Positions 503 through 5,659 of a stretch of DNA of 10,201 bases are shown here, piece after piece; position 1 is the first letter of the stretch; each line of letters opens with the position of its first letter. The notes under the pieces were generated by a model, which was given only the letters and a program-made list of their open reading frames with translations, made no database searches and had not been told where the DNA came from. A program made the position numbers and the translations under genes. The stretch is taken from the UHGV virus genome UHGV-1546769; one strand, 5' to 3'. Origin of the DNA: a virus.

Positions 503-1300
503 TCAATGAACGGTATCGAGCAGCTTTAACAGCTCAGGGAATCGGGATTCGAAGAAATGCGGCTGCGTCTCGCGCGGATTTGCGGGACTGGTGATGTTCT
601 TGCCGAACATGCAACCTTTCGCTGTCAGCGACCAGAATTTTTTGATGTTGTTAATCGCGGTACGGCTGTATCGTTCGCGCTGCTCGACGATCCCCAGCTT
701 CGCCATCTGGTGATATGCCTGATTAGCCGTAAGGCGGATACCATACTGTTTCAGCAGTGCACTCAGCGACAGCGTAGGGCGACTTGAGCCATCAGGCGCG
801 TCAGCAGGAGCATCAATGGCATAGCGTGGTGCCAGATTCGGTAAGCCAACAGCCTCCTGGAGTTTCTGACAGGCCCCAAGCACAGATGAGTTAGACAGGT
901 TTAACTCCCGGCGCATAAAGTCCAGCAGAATCACGCCAGCCTGCATCTTGTCAGCAGCCTGCCCGGATAATTTTTCCGGTGCGCTGGTTACCATATCGAA
1001 AGTACGGATCACCTTCAGATGGAATGACGGGCTGATCCACATTGCATAGGCATACACCAGTTCTTTGCAGACATACGTCCCCTGGTTATTTCCGCCACGA
1101 CTAACGTTAACTGGCTCTATATTGACCGAGTTGCAAATCTGCAACTCGCTTATTAAACGTTCGGTTTGCTCATTGCGGAGCCAGAATGCAGGCTTATGCT
1201 TATCCTGAGAACCGGCAGCCCTGTGCAGATCGTTCAGGCTGTAACGCCCATAAGCATCACGACGAACTTCAATACCATCAATGACCATCAGATTATTCAT
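503..1300 (-). CDS. KilA-N domain protein (phage antirepressor-like, with a KilA-C/ANT-like C-terminal region)
   Basis: 265 aa. The N-terminus MNNLMVIDGIEVRRDAYGRYSLNDLHRAAG...KPAFWLRNEQTERLI matches the KilA-N pattern as I remember it. ATG at 1300..1298 is preceded by GAGGAG about 9 nt upstream; stop TGA at 505..503. Confidence 0.8.
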   Translation of the reverse strand: MNNLMVIDGIEVRRDAYGRYSLNDLHRAAGSQDKHKPAFWLRNEQTERLISELQICNSVNIEPVNVSRGGNNQGTYVCKELVYAYAMWISPSFHLKVIRTFDMVTSAPEKLSGQAADKMQAGVILLDFMRRELNLSNSSVLGACQKLQEAVGLPNLAPRYAIDAPADAPDGSSRPTLSLSALLKQYGIRLTANQAYHQMAKLGIVEQRERYSRTAINNIKKFWSLTAKGCMFGKNITSPANPRETQPHFFESRFPELLKLLDTVH

Positions 1301-1319
1301 ACTTCGTTTCTCCTCTTAA

Positions 1320-1709
1320 TCAGGCGGCTGCACCCGCCGTTTTCTCGTACTTACTGATAGTGATCTCGACCTTCCCTTCCGGGATAACCGGCCCCCACTC
1401 CACCAGCATTCTTTTCACCTGGCTGTCGTCTTCCCACACCCCCGCGTGGGTCAGGGCGTCAAACAGCGCCTTGTTATAGTTGTCCAGATCGCGGATCCGG
1501 TTATCCGGAGGAAACAACACGATCTCCACTGAAGCAGGTGCCGACGTTGGTTTCGGCAGACGACGTAACTGCTCAACTATTGCTGCGCACGCCGCGCTCT
1601 GGAATTTTCGCCCCGCCTCGCTTATCAGGCTTTTACCTACAAACGCCCCTTTGTTGGGGTGTCGCCAGTACGTGTTCACGCTGGGCGGAAAAGGCAGTAT
1701 TAGCTTCAT
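1320..1709 (-). CDS. rusA: Crossover junction endodeoxyribonuclease RusA (Holliday junction resolvase)
   Basis: 129 aa. LPFPPSVNTYWRH near the N-terminus and the acidic motif RIRDLDNYNKALFDALTHAGVWEDDSQV match the RusA family (catalytic Asp cluster DLDN). The ATG at 1709..1707 overlaps the upstream TGA at 1708..1706 (ATGA), suggesting translational coupling. Confidence 0.9.
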   Translation of the reverse strand: MKLILPFPPSVNTYWRHPNKGAFVGKSLISEAGRKFQSAACAAIVEQLRRLPKPTSAPASVEIVLFPPDNRIRDLDNYNKALFDALTHAGVWEDDSQVKRMLVEWGPVIPEGKVEITISKYEKTAGAAA

Positions 1710-2034
1710 ACTTTCAGGCCCCTCTCATGTAACCAGTGAGTTGCACGCAGCCTTGCGTTTTCCTCACCGGCAAGCAGTGAGCGGATAATCCCGACCGCCT
1801 CGCTGTCGTCGTCCTTCACCGCGGTATGAAGCGTTATCCCCCGGGCCACACCACGCTTTATCGTGATGACGCCTTTTTTCTCCAGTGCGCGAAGATGCTC
1901 CACCGCTGCATTCACCGAACGGTATCCCAGCATGGTTGCCACCTCCTGATTGGTTGGCGGAAAGCCACGCTCTTGCTGGTAAGAAATCAGCATATCCAGC
2001 ACCTGCTGCTGGCATTGAGTTAACGTCGTCATGC
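1706..2034 (-). CDS. LexA N-terminal DNA-binding-domain protein (winged HTH only, no S24 peptidase domain)
   Basis: The C-terminal 108 aa of track ORF 1706..2263, MTTLTQCQQQVLDMLISYQQERGFPPTNQEVATMLGYRSVNAAVEHLRALEKKGVITIKRGVARGITL, follows the E. coli LexA N-terminal domain pattern (LTxRQQEV.D.I...GxPPTxxEIAxxLGFRSxNAAEEHLKALxRKGVIEI..GxSRGIRL) almost position for position. I chose the internal ATG at 2034..2032 because GGAG lies about 7 nt upstream; the 77 residues upstream in the track ORF are low-complexity and overlap the methyltransferase frame. Confidence 0.6.
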
Positions 2035-2669
2035 CGCCATCTCCCTGACAAGTTTTTCTGCCTGCTGGCGAACGCCTCACCACATGCCTCAAGTTCATCG
2101 CGCCCGATGTAGCTGATTGCCGGTCCCTTCCAGGTCTTGTCGAAAACAGCAATAGCACCAGCGAAGAAAGCGCCTGTCGGCACCTGCTTCTCATCCTTCG
2201 GGATAAACCAGGCAGGCAGTTCAAAACCAATACGCCCGCGAATAAAAGCAATATGGTCCGCATCTTCCGGCCACCACACTTCGCTGGTGGCCGCTTTGAT
2301 CAGGAAAACATAGCGCCCGCCCTTATCACGCATGGCACTGGCATGTTTCATGATGTAACGCATGCCGGTGATGTATTGCCCCTCATGCTGACTGGCGCGG
2401 CTGTATGGGGGATTACCAAAGGCAGCACCTTTAAGCTCCGCAAGACGTTCTGACCAGTCATGCGCCAGCGCGTTGTCTTCCGCCGTGTAATACGCGGCAC
2501 ATTTGGCGTTATCACCGTCAGTGAACAGATCCAGAACAAACGGACCAAACAAGGTGTTAATTCCCCAGAAAATGTTGTCCGGCGTGCGCCACTGATCGCC
2601 CACTTCCTTCAGTTCATGGGCTGGTTTGTTCCGCAGTTCTACCAGCGCCTGGCAATATTTATTACTCAT
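1764..2669 (-). CDS. Phage-type DNA N6-adenine methyltransferase (Dam-like), 3' end uncertain
   Basis: The N-terminal ~190 aa carry the GDQWRTPD motif and the catalytic FGNPPYSR (NPPY/DPPY) motif of N6-adenine methyltransferases. ATG at 2669..2667 follows a GGGGG stretch. The frame stays open to 1764, but the last ~90 aa are Gly/Arg-rich low complexity (GGGNHAGIPFGECSGGASSRTGEKRRHHDKAW...) and overlap the LexA-like gene in another frame, so the true C-terminus is doubtful. Confidence 0.75.
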   Translation of the reverse strand: MSNKYCQALVELRNKPAHELKEVGDQWRTPDNIFWGINTLFGPFVLDLFTDGDNAKCAAYYTAEDNALAHDWSERLAELKGAAFGNPPYSRASQHEGQYITGMRYIMKHASAMRDKGGRYVFLIKAATSEVWWPEDADHIAFIRGRIGFELPAWFIPKDEKQVPTGAFFAGAIAVFDKTWKGPAISYIGRDELEACGEAFASRQKNLSGRWRHDDVNSMPAAGAGYADFLPARAWLSANQSGGGNHAGIPFGECSGGASSRTGEKRRHHDKAWCGPGDNASYRGEGRRQRGGRDYPLTACR

Positions 2670-2761
2670 TAAGCCCCCACGTAAAAAGCATCCGCAATGT
2701 CTCCGGAAGTACAGCCCGGATGGGCTTCAATGAATTTCTGAACGTCATTTAACAGACTCAT
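2669..2761 (-). CDS. Candidate 30-aa small protein (not in the ORF track)
   Basis: Hand translation of the minus strand gives MSLLNDVQKFIEAHPGCTSGDIADAFYVGA*. Its ATG (2761..2759) lies 2 nt after the O-like stop TGA (2766..2764), and its TAA stop (2671..2669) overlaps the methyltransferase ATG (2669..2667) as TAATG. It fills the only gap between those two genes exactly. Confidence 0.3.
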   Translation of the reverse strand: MSLLNDVQKFIEAHPGCTSGDIADAFYVGA

Positions 2762-2763
2762 GA

Positions 2764-4910: not shown

Positions 4911-5005
4911 TTCTGTCTCCCGTTAAATTACGTTAAGCAGAAATGTAGGATATCCAACATGCAAATGTCAAGAATCCTACATGGGCATGTGGTAGGATTG
5001 CCTAC
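4911..5005. promoter_or_regulatory. Right operator/promoter region (oR, pR towards cro, pRM towards cI)
   Basis: An 18-bp palindrome ATGTAGGATATCCAACAT lies at 4943-4960 and a split inverted repeat ATCCTACAT-N4-ATGTGGTAGGAT at 4974-4998, with a further half-site overlapping the cI start. On the minus strand a TTGACA -35 (plus coordinates 4966-4971) and a TACATT -10 (4942-4947) with 18-bp spacing sit directly upstream of cro, and the operator overlaps the spacer and -10. Confidence 0.65.
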
Positions 5006-5659
5006 ATGATGAACATGAGTGATCGTATTCGCCAAAGGCGAAAAGAACTGAACCTGACACAACAAGCACTGGCTGATTTGACTGGTGTGAACCGTGTCAC
5101 GGTTACTGGATGGGAAAAGGACGACTACCAACCAAATGGAGCCAACCTTCAAGCCCTAGCCAACGCACTTAAATGCGATCCTCTGTGGCTTGTTAGCGGA
5201 AAAGGCTCGCCTGAACCAAAGATAAATCTAAAACCTGAAATATTCGCAGTTAAAAAAGTCCCCCTCATCTCGTGGGTTCAGGCGGGTTCATGGACAATGA
5301 CGGAGCCTGGTGTCAGGAAAGAAGATGCTGAAGAGTGGGTTTATACTACCGCCCTTGTATCAGAAATGGCATTTGCACTACGGGTCCGTGGTGATTCAAT
5401 GACCAATCCCCTCGGCTCACCATCGATACCAGAAGGTTCTATCGTTATCGTAGAGCCAGATATTATTGATACAGAGTGTATTAACGGAAAAATCGTTGTT
5501 GCCCATATCAATGGTGGGCAAGAAGCGACACTCAAAAAATTTGTTGAGGACTGGCCGAACAGGTATCTCGTCCCACTAAATCCTAACTATAAAACTATTG
5601 AATGCGGTGAGAACTGCAGAATAGTTGGTCTTGTCAAACAAGTAATAATGGATTTTTGA
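5006..5659 (+). CDS. Prophage CI-type repressor (N-terminal XRE-family HTH plus C-terminal S24 LexA-like autopeptidase domain)
   Basis: 217 aa. HTH region RRKELNLTQQALADLTGVNRVTVTGWE; candidate Ala-Gly autocleavage site in SWVQAGSW; S24 catalytic Ser motif VRGDSMTNP and Lys in ATLKKF. Three in-frame ATGs at 5006, 5009 and 5015 with only a weak AGGA upstream, as for leaderless or weakly initiated cI transcripts. Confidence 0.9.
   Translation: MMNMSDRIRQRRKELNLTQQALADLTGVNRVTVTGWEKDDYQPNGANLQALANALKCDPLWLVSGKGSPEPKINLKPEIFAVKKVPLISWVQAGSWTMTEPGVRKEDAEEWVYTTALVSEMAFALRVRGDSMTNPLGSPSIPEGSIVIVEPDIIDTECINGKIVVAHINGGQEATLKKFVEDWPNRYLVPLNPNYKTIECGENCRIVGLVKQVIMDF

What the first reader, a model, noticed from the sequence alone, without database searches (positions are those of the whole stretch)
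1706..2034. LexA DNA-binding domain encoded alone, translationally coupled to RusA, in a prophage whose own repressor is an S24 autopeptidase
The 108-aa product follows the LexA N-terminal winged-HTH pattern nearly position for position but has no cleavage site or S24 domain. Such a protein could bind SOS boxes without being cleavable by RecA*, or form non-functional heterodimers, either damping or re-wiring the host SOS response from inside a prophage whose induction itself depends on RecA-mediated CI cleavage. Its stop overlaps the rusA start (ATGA).
Basis: partly seen in the sequence, partly recalled or inferred. Interest (0 to 1): 0.65.

Follow-up and report, generated by a model that had tools for sequence, protein, structure and literature searches.

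The report
Phage LexA DNA-binding domain without protease
A lambdoid prophage carries a small, well-conserved gene for a copy of the SOS repressor LexA's DNA-binding domain that lacks the self-cleaving part; it is very common in E. coli, already annotated but untested, and most plausibly acts as a damage-proof regulator of SOS-type promoters during phage induction.

Summary
A 108-aa ORF on the minus strand (1706-2032, not 2034) matches Pfam LexA_DNA_bind end to end (E=2.6e-19). It is about 50% identical to E. coli LexA residues 1-68, has no S24 domain, and its TGA overlaps the rusA ATG. The prophage repressor is a canonical HTH+S24 protein.

New findings:
- Residues 74-103 form a conserved two-helix hairpin under the same purifying selection as the DNA-binding domain (dN/dS about 0.2).
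- The Ala-Gly at 88-89 is not conserved, so it is not a cleavage site.
- The gene sits in the CI-controlled early-right operon with no promoter of its own predicted. It should therefore be expressed on induction, not in the lysogen.
- The window contains no SOS box. In sister lineages, however, the homologue lies in operons headed by near-consensus SOS boxes, often together with a dinI-like gene.
- The gene occurs in 2222 of 5426 complete E. coli genomes and in Stx2, SfV and mEp460 phages. It is annotated "LexA family transcriptional regulator".

I found no functional study. The closest characterised precedent is GIL01 gp6, a truncated LexA homologue that activates a late promoter.

Best reading (about 0.4): a RecA-insensitive binder of SOS boxes. 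It is a new variant of a known kind, of moderate interest.

The parts
1706..2032 (-). LexA-like ORF, 108 aa plus TGA (LexA DNA-binding domain plus C-terminal hairpin, no S24 domain)
   Evidence: (phrog_362, E=1.7e-59). The exact protein sequence is on at least 998 public contigs.
1829..2032 (-). Winged helix-turn-helix, aa 1-68 (helices 6-22, 28-35, 40-52; strands 56-58, 66-68)
   Evidence: AF2 model. Foldseek to 3jso gives rmsd 0.9-1.0 A at 50% identity. All 17 family-invariant residues in this part are identical in E. coli LexA.
1877..1915 (-). Recognition helix, aa 40-52 (VNAAVEHLRALEK); S39 immediately precedes it. E. coli LexA has SPNAAEEHLKALAR over aa 39-52.
   Evidence: Alignments. GIL01 gp6 has SHKTAHRYL at the corresponding position.
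1724..1813 (-). Conserved C-terminal two-helix hairpin, aa 74-103 (invariant A97 and L101, aromatic residue at 100); candidate dimerisation or partner interface
   Evidence: AF2 helices H74-88 and H93-103 with pLDDT about 90. Conservation. dN/dS is 0.19 for codons 71-106 of the 106-aa homologue versus 0.20 for the wHTH, measured in the P0128 lineage.
2041..2046 (-). Shine-Dalgarno-like AGGGAG, 8 nt upstream of the LexA-like ATG
   Evidence: Read directly from the sequence.
1706..1709 (-). ATGA stop/start overlap between the LexA-like gene and rusA
   Evidence: The same 4-nt overlap is present in 163 of 170 related loci.
1320..1709 (-). rusA (Holliday-junction resolvase)
   Evidence: PF05866, E=4.8e-15.
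1764..2669 (-). Phage Dam-type N6-adenine methyltransferase ORF. It is frameshifted by a private 13-bp deletion between 2074 and 2073, so it reads 268 nt into the LexA-like ORF. In relatives it is 217 aa and its TGA overlaps the LexA-like ATG.
   Evidence: PF05869, E=2.6e-45, on aa 18-198. Alignment A1, annotations, and deletion not found elsewhere.
4942..4971 (-). pR-like sigma-70 promoter (TTGACA-18-TACATT) heading the cro-cII-O-MTase-LexA-like-rusA-kilA-N operon
5006..5659 (+). CI-type prophage repressor, HTH_3 plus Peptidase_S24
   Evidence: AG, GDSM and LKK motifs are visible in the translation.
503..1300 (-). KilA-N domain gene directly downstream of rusA
   Evidence: PF04383, E=3.8e-27. 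In about 10% of relatives an SOS box precedes this gene; the window has none.

Best explanation
The gene encodes a RecA*-insensitive surrogate LexA. It consists of a LexA-type winged-HTH with a LexA-like recognition helix, joined by a short flexible linker to a conserved two-helix hairpin. The hairpin replaces the S24 domain and is inferred to supply the dimerisation that an isolated LexA DNA-binding domain needs in order to repress.

The gene is transcribed from the CI-controlled early-right operon. The protein therefore appears after SOS-triggered CI cleavage (or on infection), which is exactly when host LexA is being destroyed. It is inferred to bind CTGT-N8-ACAG-type operators and re-close SOS-box promoters. 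Candidate targets are host SOS genes, LexA-controlled phage morons such as dinI-like genes, and LexA-controlled antirepressors of co-resident prophages. The host cannot remove it by RecA-mediated cleavage.

Shown: domain identity, absence of the S24 domain and of a conserved cleavage site, fold, conservation and selection, operon position, and the association of sister genes with SOS boxes and dinI.

Inferred: DNA specificity, dimerisation, the repressing rather than activating direction, and the physiological targets.
For: (1) Domain identity and fold.
(2) All 17 residues that are invariant across 28 family members within aa 1-68 are identical in E. coli LexA. These include S39 and N41 in or next to the recognition helix and R64, G65 and I66 in the wing. 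A42, E45 and H46 are also retained in the window protein. By contrast GIL01 gp6, which binds a different palindrome, has a diverged recognition helix (PMC6182141).
(3) An isolated LexA DNA-binding domain represses sulA only when fused to a dimerising partner (LexA two-hybrid principle; PMC7595419). LexA dimerises through the C-terminal domain that is missing here (PMC3159453). The family instead carries a conserved helical hairpin under equal purifying selection (dN/dS 0.19 versus 0.20).
(4) Expression timing follows from operon position.
(5) In sister lineages (38-42% identity; Enterobacter, Cedecea, Klebsiella), 33 of 39 loci place the homologue downstream of a near-consensus SOS box (14-20 of 20 matches to TACTGTATATATATACAGTA). 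In most of these the box sits about 435-690 nt upstream of the gene; in a few it lies farther away (about 1.2-2.4 kb) or is not the only box. A DinI-family gene (PF06183, E=1.2e-23) often lies in between. This is the same box-upstream-of-gene signature seen at genuine lexA genes in the control loci L097-L176. It also places the gene in an SOS-modulating context.
(6) A complete relative phage carries 6 exact CTGT-N8-ACAG boxes against 0.57 expected. Two of them lie upstream of its dinI-like gene, so phage-borne targets exist.
Against: - There is no SOS-like box anywhere in the 10.2-kb window, so no target is visible locally.
- LexA E44 is V here and is never E in the family. LexA R28 is N.
- In the L282 sub-lineage E45 is replaced by L, although its upstream SOS boxes are the strongest. 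Those boxes may therefore serve host LexA only.
- Dimerisation through the hairpin is untested. The model's pTM is 0.58, and only a monomer could be modelled.
- The strict promoter scan did not confirm promoters at the sister-lineage SOS boxes.
- The only characterised phage LexA-DBD-only protein, gp6, recognises a non-SOS site and activates transcription (PMC6182141).
- No experimental paper on this family was found in six searches.
Confidence: 0.4

Rival explanations
1. A gp6-like, phage-specific transcription factor. Under this reading the captured LexA domain has been retargeted to an operator of the phage's own that is not an SOS box. There it would activate or repress a phage promoter, for example one timing delayed-early, late or moron genes.
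For: The only characterised phage-encoded truncated LexA homologue, GIL01 gp6, does exactly this. It binds GaCACAnnTGTGaC and activates late promoter P3 (PMC6182141). The window contains no SOS box. Positions 28 and 44 differ from LexA, and position 45 varies in some lineages. Stand-alone LexA-DBD proteins are common in phage proteomes (BFVD hits).
Against: The recognition helix is far closer to host LexA than gp6's is (SVNAAVEHL versus SPNAAEEHL versus SHKTAHRYL). Late genes in these phages are served by a Q antiterminator encoded just downstream. No conserved alternative palindrome was identified. There is no sequence relationship to gp6 beyond the shared fold.
Confidence: 0.3
2. An SOS antagonist or dominant negative. 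The protein would compete with host LexA at operators, or form mixed complexes on DNA, without repressing. The effect would be to raise SOS expression or to lower the induction threshold.
For: It shares the LexA DNA-binding surface. NTD-NTD contacts exist in operator-bound LexA (PMC3159453), so mixed occupancy is conceivable.
Against: It lacks the LexA dimerisation domain, so it cannot heterodimerise in solution. It is made when LexA is already being cleaved, which leaves little to antagonise. Its co-operonic partner in sister lineages is DinI-like, a family known (my own knowledge, not checked in a paper here) for damping RecA* activity rather than boosting SOS.
Confidence: 0.07
3. A DNA-binding accessory of the neighbouring enzymes. 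It might act as a partner or targeting factor for the RusA resolvase, or as a controller of the upstream DNA methyltransferase, analogous to the C-proteins of restriction-modification systems.
For: The gene lies directly upstream of rusA, with a 4-nt overlap, in 163 of 170 loci, and in eight lineages down to 38% identity. A methyltransferase usually lies directly upstream.
Against: rusA is absent from 24 of 39 sister-lineage loci that keep the LexA-like gene. RusA homologues occur in 411 phage records against 61 with the LexA-like gene. The upstream methyltransferase belongs to three unrelated families (PF05869, PF00145, PF02086) or is absent altogether in the P0128 lineage. This fits a variable moron slot, not a fixed partner.
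Confidence: 0.08
4. A decaying, functionless remnant of a captured lexA gene.
For: The architecture is truncated. In this window the upstream frameshift disturbs the gene's normal translational coupling.
Against: dN/dS is about 0.2 across 67 unique alleles, in both domains. The length is conserved at 105-118 aa across lineages that are 38-98% identical. The gene is present in 2222 of 5426 E. coli genomes.
Confidence: 0.02

Closest known systems
GIL01 gp6 (Bacillus thuringiensis tectivirus): a truncated LexA homologue that activates late promoter P3 (Fornelos et al. 2018, PMC6182141)
   Same: It is encoded by a temperate phage and consists of a LexA-type winged-HTH with no S24 domain. It is about 44-50% identical to the host LexA DNA-binding domain, is expressed early after SOS induction, and acts alongside host LexA.
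   Different: gp6 is 66 aa and has no C-terminal hairpin. Its recognition helix is diverged (K38; SHKTAHRYL), and it binds GaCACAnnTGTGaC rather than the host SOS box. It is an activator of late genes. It shows no BLASTP similarity to the window protein, so the two are independent captures. The window phage uses a Q antiterminator for late genes.
Host LexA repressor (E. coli; PDB 1lea, 3jso, 1jhh)
   Same: Residues 1-68 align without gaps at about 50% identity. The fold superposes at about 1 A. Key recognition-helix and wing residues are retained.
   Different: It has no S24 autopeptidase and dimerisation domain, no conserved Ala-Gly cleavage site, and no SOS box upstream of the gene in this window. 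It scores below the TIGR00498 equivalog cutoff (70.5 versus 110.95).
LexA N-terminal cleavage fragment and engineered LexA-DBD fusions (bacterial LexA two-hybrid; Dmitrova 1998, as used in PMC7595419)
   Same: Each is a LexA DNA-binding domain detached from the protease domain. The fusions show that the domain plus any dimerising module gives a RecA-independent repressor of sulA.
   Different: The natural cleavage fragment is a short-lived degradation intermediate (degraded by ClpXP and Lon; PMC3159453). The phage protein is a dedicated, selected gene with its own conserved C-terminal module, whose dimerising ability is not yet shown.
Phage and host DinI-family proteins, and GIL01 gp7 (other phage-borne SOS modulators)
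   Same: They share the functional theme of phage factors that tune the host SOS response. A dinI-like gene is co-operonic with the LexA-like gene in sister lineages.
   Different: They are unrelated in sequence and mechanism. From my own knowledge, DinI acts on RecA filaments. gp7 acts by binding LexA (PMC4551915, PMC6182141). Neither works by occupying operators.

Membership tests
Pfam PF01726 LexA_DNA_bind / PHROG 362 | Profile match above the curated threshold over the whole domain | tested here: met
   69.2 bits against a cutoff of 23.7, covering positions 1-65 of 65. phrog_362 matches at E=1.7e-59 over positions 1-106 of 106.
Pfam PF01726 LexA_DNA_bind / PHROG 362 | Winged helix-turn-helix fold (three helices plus a beta hairpin) | tested here: met
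   AF2 secondary structure. The model superposes on 3jso and 1lea at 0.9-1.2 A. This is a prediction, not an experimental structure.
Bona fide LexA repressor (TIGR00498 equivalog) | C-terminal S24 peptidase domain with the Ser/Lys dyad | tested here: not met
   The protein ends at residue 108, there is no PF00717 hit, and TIGR00498 scores 70.5 against a cutoff of 110.95.
Bona fide LexA repressor (TIGR00498 equivalog) | Conserved Ala-Gly cleavage site | tested here: not met
   A88-G89 is present in this protein but is replaced by AN, VG, ER, SG, TR, DD or DT in homologues.
Bona fide LexA repressor (TIGR00498 equivalog) | Autoregulatory SOS box upstream of the gene | tested here: not met
   The window has none. 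It is present in 33 of 39 sister-lineage loci and at the genuine lexA control loci.
Bona fide LexA repressor (TIGR00498 equivalog) | Specific binding to CTGT-N8-ACAG operators as a dimer | not testable with these tools
   Only residue conservation can be inferred. EMSA, SPR or DAP-seq is needed.
GIL01 gp6-type truncated LexA homologue (late-promoter activator) | Phage-encoded LexA DNA-binding domain without an S24 domain | tested here: met
   The window protein differs in having an extra 35-40 aa hairpin.
GIL01 gp6-type truncated LexA homologue (late-promoter activator) | Sequence relationship to gp6, including the recognition-helix Lys38 | tested here: not met
   BLASTP finds no alignment at E<=100. 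In the MAFFT alignment, the gp6 recognition helix is SHKTAHRYL where the window protein has SVNAAVEHL, so the gp6 Lys38 is not retained.
GIL01 gp6-type truncated LexA homologue (late-promoter activator) | Binds a distinct palindrome at, and activates, a late promoter | not tested
Late control in these phages is by Q.

The most novel reading that the evidence does not exclude
Half of all E. coli strains, including Stx2-phage lysogens, may carry a phage-made, uncleavable surrogate LexA. On this reading it is switched on by the SOS response itself, through CI cleavage in this phage type and through SOS-box promoters alongside DinI in sister types. It then re-represses SOS-box promoters genome-wide. 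That would terminate the host's damage response during phage development and silence rival prophages that depend on LexA-controlled antirepressors. Such a factor would be a widespread anti-SOS and inter-prophage competition factor.
Probability: 0.25. Interest if true: 0.8.

Novelty: new variant of a known kind. Interest (0 to 1): 0.52.

Why it matters
If the protein binds SOS boxes, induced lambdoid prophages, including Stx2a, Stx2c and Stx2k converting phages, Shigella serotype-converting phages and the cdtI phage, would actively reshape the host SOS response in a way RecA cannot reverse. That could affect mutagenesis, antibiotic-triggered toxin and phage release, and cross-induction of other prophages.

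The family also offers a natural 'LexA DNA-binding domain plus small oligomerisation module' design. This parallels the engineered LexA two-hybrid repressors.

If instead it behaves like GIL01 gp6, it would show that capture and retargeting of the host LexA domain happened independently in Gram-negative siphophages. Either outcome can be tested with simple reporter and EMSA experiments.

Tried and rejected
(1) The Ala-Gly at 88-89 as a trans-cleavable site. Rejected because it is not conserved.

(2) RusA-partner hypothesis. The adjacency is strong (163 of 170 loci), but rusA is dispensable in sister loci and RusA is far more widespread than the LexA-like gene.

(3) Methyltransferase-controller hypothesis. 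The upstream methyltransferase belongs to three unrelated families or is absent.

(4) Whether the small ORF 'X' that precedes the gene in sister lineages is a detached LexA C-terminal domain. hhalign gave probability 1% and the PDB profile search found nothing.

(5) The genome-contig scan with the family alignment returned almost only genuine host lexA genes (Halomonas and others). It was useful only as a positive control for SOS boxes upstream of lexA.

(6) The viral-contig scan with P0236 found nothing, and the scan with P0265 found only 3 loci.

(7) The strict sigma-70 scan did not confirm promoters at the sister-lineage SOS boxes. It did find a terminator just upstream in L008.

(8) Literature searches found no functional study of this enterobacterial family. 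The gp6 precedent surfaced only after the BFVD fold search pointed to Tectiviridae.

(9) Zhang et al. 2010 (LexA-DNA structure) is not held in the library. Statements about which residues contact bases therefore rest on my own knowledge and on alignment conservation.

Full report
**What is there**

The finding is a real ORF on the minus strand, at 1706-2032 (108 codons plus TGA). Its product matches Pfam LexA_DNA_bind over the whole profile (E=2.6e-19). It aligns without gaps to residues 2-69 of E. coli LexA (E=6.6e-16). It carries no S24 peptidase domain: the NCBIfam lexA equivalog scores 70.5 against a cutoff of 110.95. An AlphaFold2 model built on 28 homologues (pLDDT 84.7) superposes on the LexA-operator crystal structure 3jso at 0.9-1.0 A, with 50-51% identity over 67-69 residues.

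The TGA overlaps the rusA ATG (ATGA, 1709-1706). The prophage's own repressor (5006-5659) is a canonical HTH_3 plus Peptidase_S24 protein.

After the winged-HTH (aa 1-68) comes a low-confidence linker (aa 71-75). Two confidently predicted helices follow (aa 74-88 and 93-103). This hairpin is conserved across lineages that are only 38-50% identical to the window protein. A97 and L101 are invariant, and position 100 is always aromatic. In 67 unique alleles of one lineage, dN/dS is 0.19 for the hairpin and 0.20 for the DNA-binding domain. Both parts are therefore functional.

The dipeptide A88-G89 aligns with the LexA cleavage site A84-G85. It is replaced by AN, VG, ER, SG, TR or DT in homologues, so it is a relic and not a cleavage site.

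All 17 residues that are invariant in the family within aa 1-68 are identical in E. coli LexA. These include S39, N41, R64, G65 and I66. The window protein also keeps A42, E45 and H46. LexA E44 is V here and R28 is N.

**Context and expression**

The gene lies in one minus-strand block: cro (4910-4713), cII-like, a 112-aa ORF, an O-like replication gene, a Dam-type methyltransferase, the LexA-like gene, rusA and a KilA-N gene. A pR-like promoter sits at 4971..4942, facing the divergent cI. The scan found no minus-strand promoter-like site between pR and the site at 1319..1292 just upstream of the KilA-N gene.

By analogy with lambda's nin region, the gene should be silent in the lysogen and expressed after CI cleavage or on infection. 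This is an inference from gene order.

**How common it is, and is it known?**

The 327-bp gene is present at 90% identity or more in 2222 of 5426 complete E. coli genomes, with up to 4 copies per genome. The exact protein is on at least 998 contigs. It occurs in 61 phage records, including Stx2a, Stx2c and Stx2k converting phages, SfII, SfIV, SfV, the cdtI phage and mEp460. It is annotated 'LexA family transcriptional regulator', 'LexA-like protein' or 'transcriptional repressor', and belongs to PHROG 362. Stand-alone LexA-domain proteins are also common in other phage proteomes (BFVD).

Six literature searches found no functional study of the enterobacterial family. One precedent has been characterised: GIL01 gp6. 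This 66-aa truncated LexA homologue of a Bacillus tectivirus binds GaCACAnnTGTGaC and activates the late promoter P3 (PMC6182141). gp6 shows no BLASTP similarity to the window protein. Its recognition helix is diverged: SHKTAHRYL, against SVNAAVEHL here and SPNAAEEHL in E. coli LexA.

**Synteny**

In eight lineages down to 38% identity, the gene lies just upstream of rusA, directly so in six. In two lineages another ORF intervenes: a reverse-strand ORF in L003 and the 67-aa ORF 'Y67' in L094. In 163 of 170 loci the 4-nt overlap is kept.

The slot upstream holds methyltransferases of three unrelated families, or nothing. rusA is absent from 24 of 39 sister-lineage loci that keep the LexA-like gene. 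RusA homologues occur in 411 phage records against 61 for the LexA-like gene.

The linkage therefore reflects nin-region gene order and translational economy. It is not a dedicated partnership with RusA or with the methyltransferase.

**The most informative comparative result**

In a sister lineage from Enterobacter, Cedecea and Klebsiella, 33 of 39 loci carry a near-consensus SOS box. Examples are TACTGTATATATATACAGTA (20 of 20) and TACTGTTTATTTATACAGTA (18 of 20). In most of these loci the box lies about 435-690 nt upstream of the LexA-like gene, at the head of the following array:

- SOS box
- a DinI-family gene (PF06183, E=1.2e-23), present in about half of these loci
- a conserved 75-101-aa ORF of unknown function ('X')
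- the LexA-like gene
- a 67-aa ORF ('Y67')
- rusA, in some loci
- a DUF968 gene, followed where the flanks were examined (L008, L094) by a Q-type antiterminator gene

 The arms of the box are kept while the spacer varies between loci. In L008 a terminator-like hairpin precedes the box.

Genuine lexA genes recovered as controls show the expected boxes 10-50 nt upstream. About 10% of E. coli-type relatives have an SOS box between rusA and the KilA-N gene. A complete relative phage has 6 exact boxes against 0.57 expected, two of them upstream of its dinI-like gene.

The window itself has none. The best 20-mer matches 12 of 20 consensus positions, and sites with 13 or more matches are 0 observed against 2.15 expected.

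In both architectures the gene is wired to come on when the SOS response fires: through CI cleavage here, and through LexA cleavage in the sister lineage. In the sister lineage it travels with DinI, which from my own knowledge is an SOS-damping factor.

**Mechanism**

An isolated LexA DNA-binding domain does not repress unless it is joined to a dimerising module. This is the basis of the LexA two-hybrid system (PMC7595419). LexA's own dimerisation resides in the missing C-terminal domain (PMC3159453).

The most economical reading is that the conserved hairpin supplies oligomerisation. The protein would then be a RecA*-proof surrogate LexA that re-closes SOS-box promoters during induced lytic growth. 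I put this at about 0.4.

The main rival, at about 0.3, is a gp6-like phage-specific regulator with an operator of its own. The only experimental precedent and the lack of a local SOS box favour this rival. The LexA-like recognition helix and the presence of Q for late control count against it.

Three other readings are less likely:
- An antagonist or heterodimer model (about 0.07). The protein lacks the dimerisation domain and is made when LexA is already disappearing.
- An accessory to RusA or the methyltransferase (about 0.08). The variable synteny argues against it.
- A dead remnant (about 0.02). The selection data exclude it.

**Peculiarity of this window**

A 13-bp deletion between positions 2074 and 2073 frameshifts the methyltransferase after its catalytic domain. 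Its ORF now runs to 1764, overlapping 268 nt of the LexA-like gene. In relatives, the methyltransferase TGA overlaps the LexA-like ATG. The deletion was found in none of the 49 loci where this junction could be located. All 1378 E. coli genomes with a full-length match to the 81-nt junction query also lack it. The LexA-like gene keeps an AGGGAG Shine-Dalgarno sequence 8 nt upstream of its ATG, but read-through ribosomes may affect its translation. The yfdN/PerC gene found in most relatives is also missing.

**Verdict**

The element belongs to an already annotated, very common phage gene family. Its architecture (LexA domain plus conserved hairpin) and its SOS-linked wiring make it a new variant of the 'truncated phage LexA homologue' kind, whose only studied member is GIL01 gp6. 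Its function remains untested. Interest is moderate, at 0.52.

Noticed in passing
window 2073-2074 (within ORF 1764-2669, minus strand): A 13-bp deletion (CTTTCTGGCGCAG in relatives) frameshifts the phage Dam methyltransferase after its catalytic domain. The ORF becomes 301 aa instead of 217 and overlaps 268 nt of the LexA-like gene in another frame. The deletion was absent from all 49 loci where the junction could be located and from all 1378 E. coli genomes with a full-length match to the junction query.
   Followed up: yes
window 2670-2763: The yfdN/PerC-family gene (489 bp) that lies between the O-like gene and the methyltransferase in most relatives is absent here. Only a 94-bp gap remains. 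A minority of E. coli genomes share this shorter arrangement.
   Followed up: partly
L260-L286, L293, L094, L008, L257-L259 (e.g. L282:1839-4558): Sister-lineage operon with this order: near-consensus SOS box, then a possibly UmuD-like 109-aa ORF with its own SOS box (judged by eye from its GFPSPA motif; no Pfam hit), a dinI-like gene, conserved ORF 'X' (75-101 aa, no Pfam hit), the LexA-like gene, a 67-aa ORF, optionally rusA, and DUF968; a Q-type antiterminator gene follows in L008 and L094. X is not detectably related to the LexA C-terminal domain.
   Followed up: partly
L013:4767-4782 (also L014, L015, L036, L057, L059, L073, L088): In about 10% of E. coli-type relatives a strong SOS box (TACTGTATTTATGAACAGTG, 16 of 20) lies between rusA and the KilA-N gene. 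This suggests a LexA-controlled KilA-N or antirepressor-like gene. The window has only a 19-nt gap there and no box.
   Followed up: partly
L096 (phage phiSTEC1575-Stx2k): 169-184, 45313-45328, 45341-45356: The complete relative phage has 6 exact CTGT-N8-ACAG boxes against 0.57 expected. Two are in tandem upstream of a DinI-like gene next to the integrase. One lies upstream of a DUF4065 gene.
   Followed up: partly
L095:27-521 (P0154); also P0127, P0134, P0141, P0145, P0149, P0157, P0161: Some proteins carry two tandem LexA_DNA_bind domains and no S24 domain (about 140-350 aa). These are possible single-chain pseudo-dimers of the LexA domain, found in metagenomes.
   Followed up: no
window 6545-10130 (plus strand): The early-left block encodes a YfdQ-like protein, a YfdR-like 5'-deoxynucleotidase (phrog_318), a PAPS-reductase-like protein (phrog_424) and a DpdA-like queuine tRNA-ribosyltransferase (phrog_887, E=1.1e-103). 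This gene set is typical of phage 7-deazaguanine DNA modification.
   Followed up: no
P0022, P0092, P0098, P0252, P0282 (database proteins): Several database entries fuse Dam or RusA fragments to the LexA-like domain. Their sequences look like products of frameshifts or deletions at the overlapping gene junctions, not genuine fusion proteins.
   Followed up: partly
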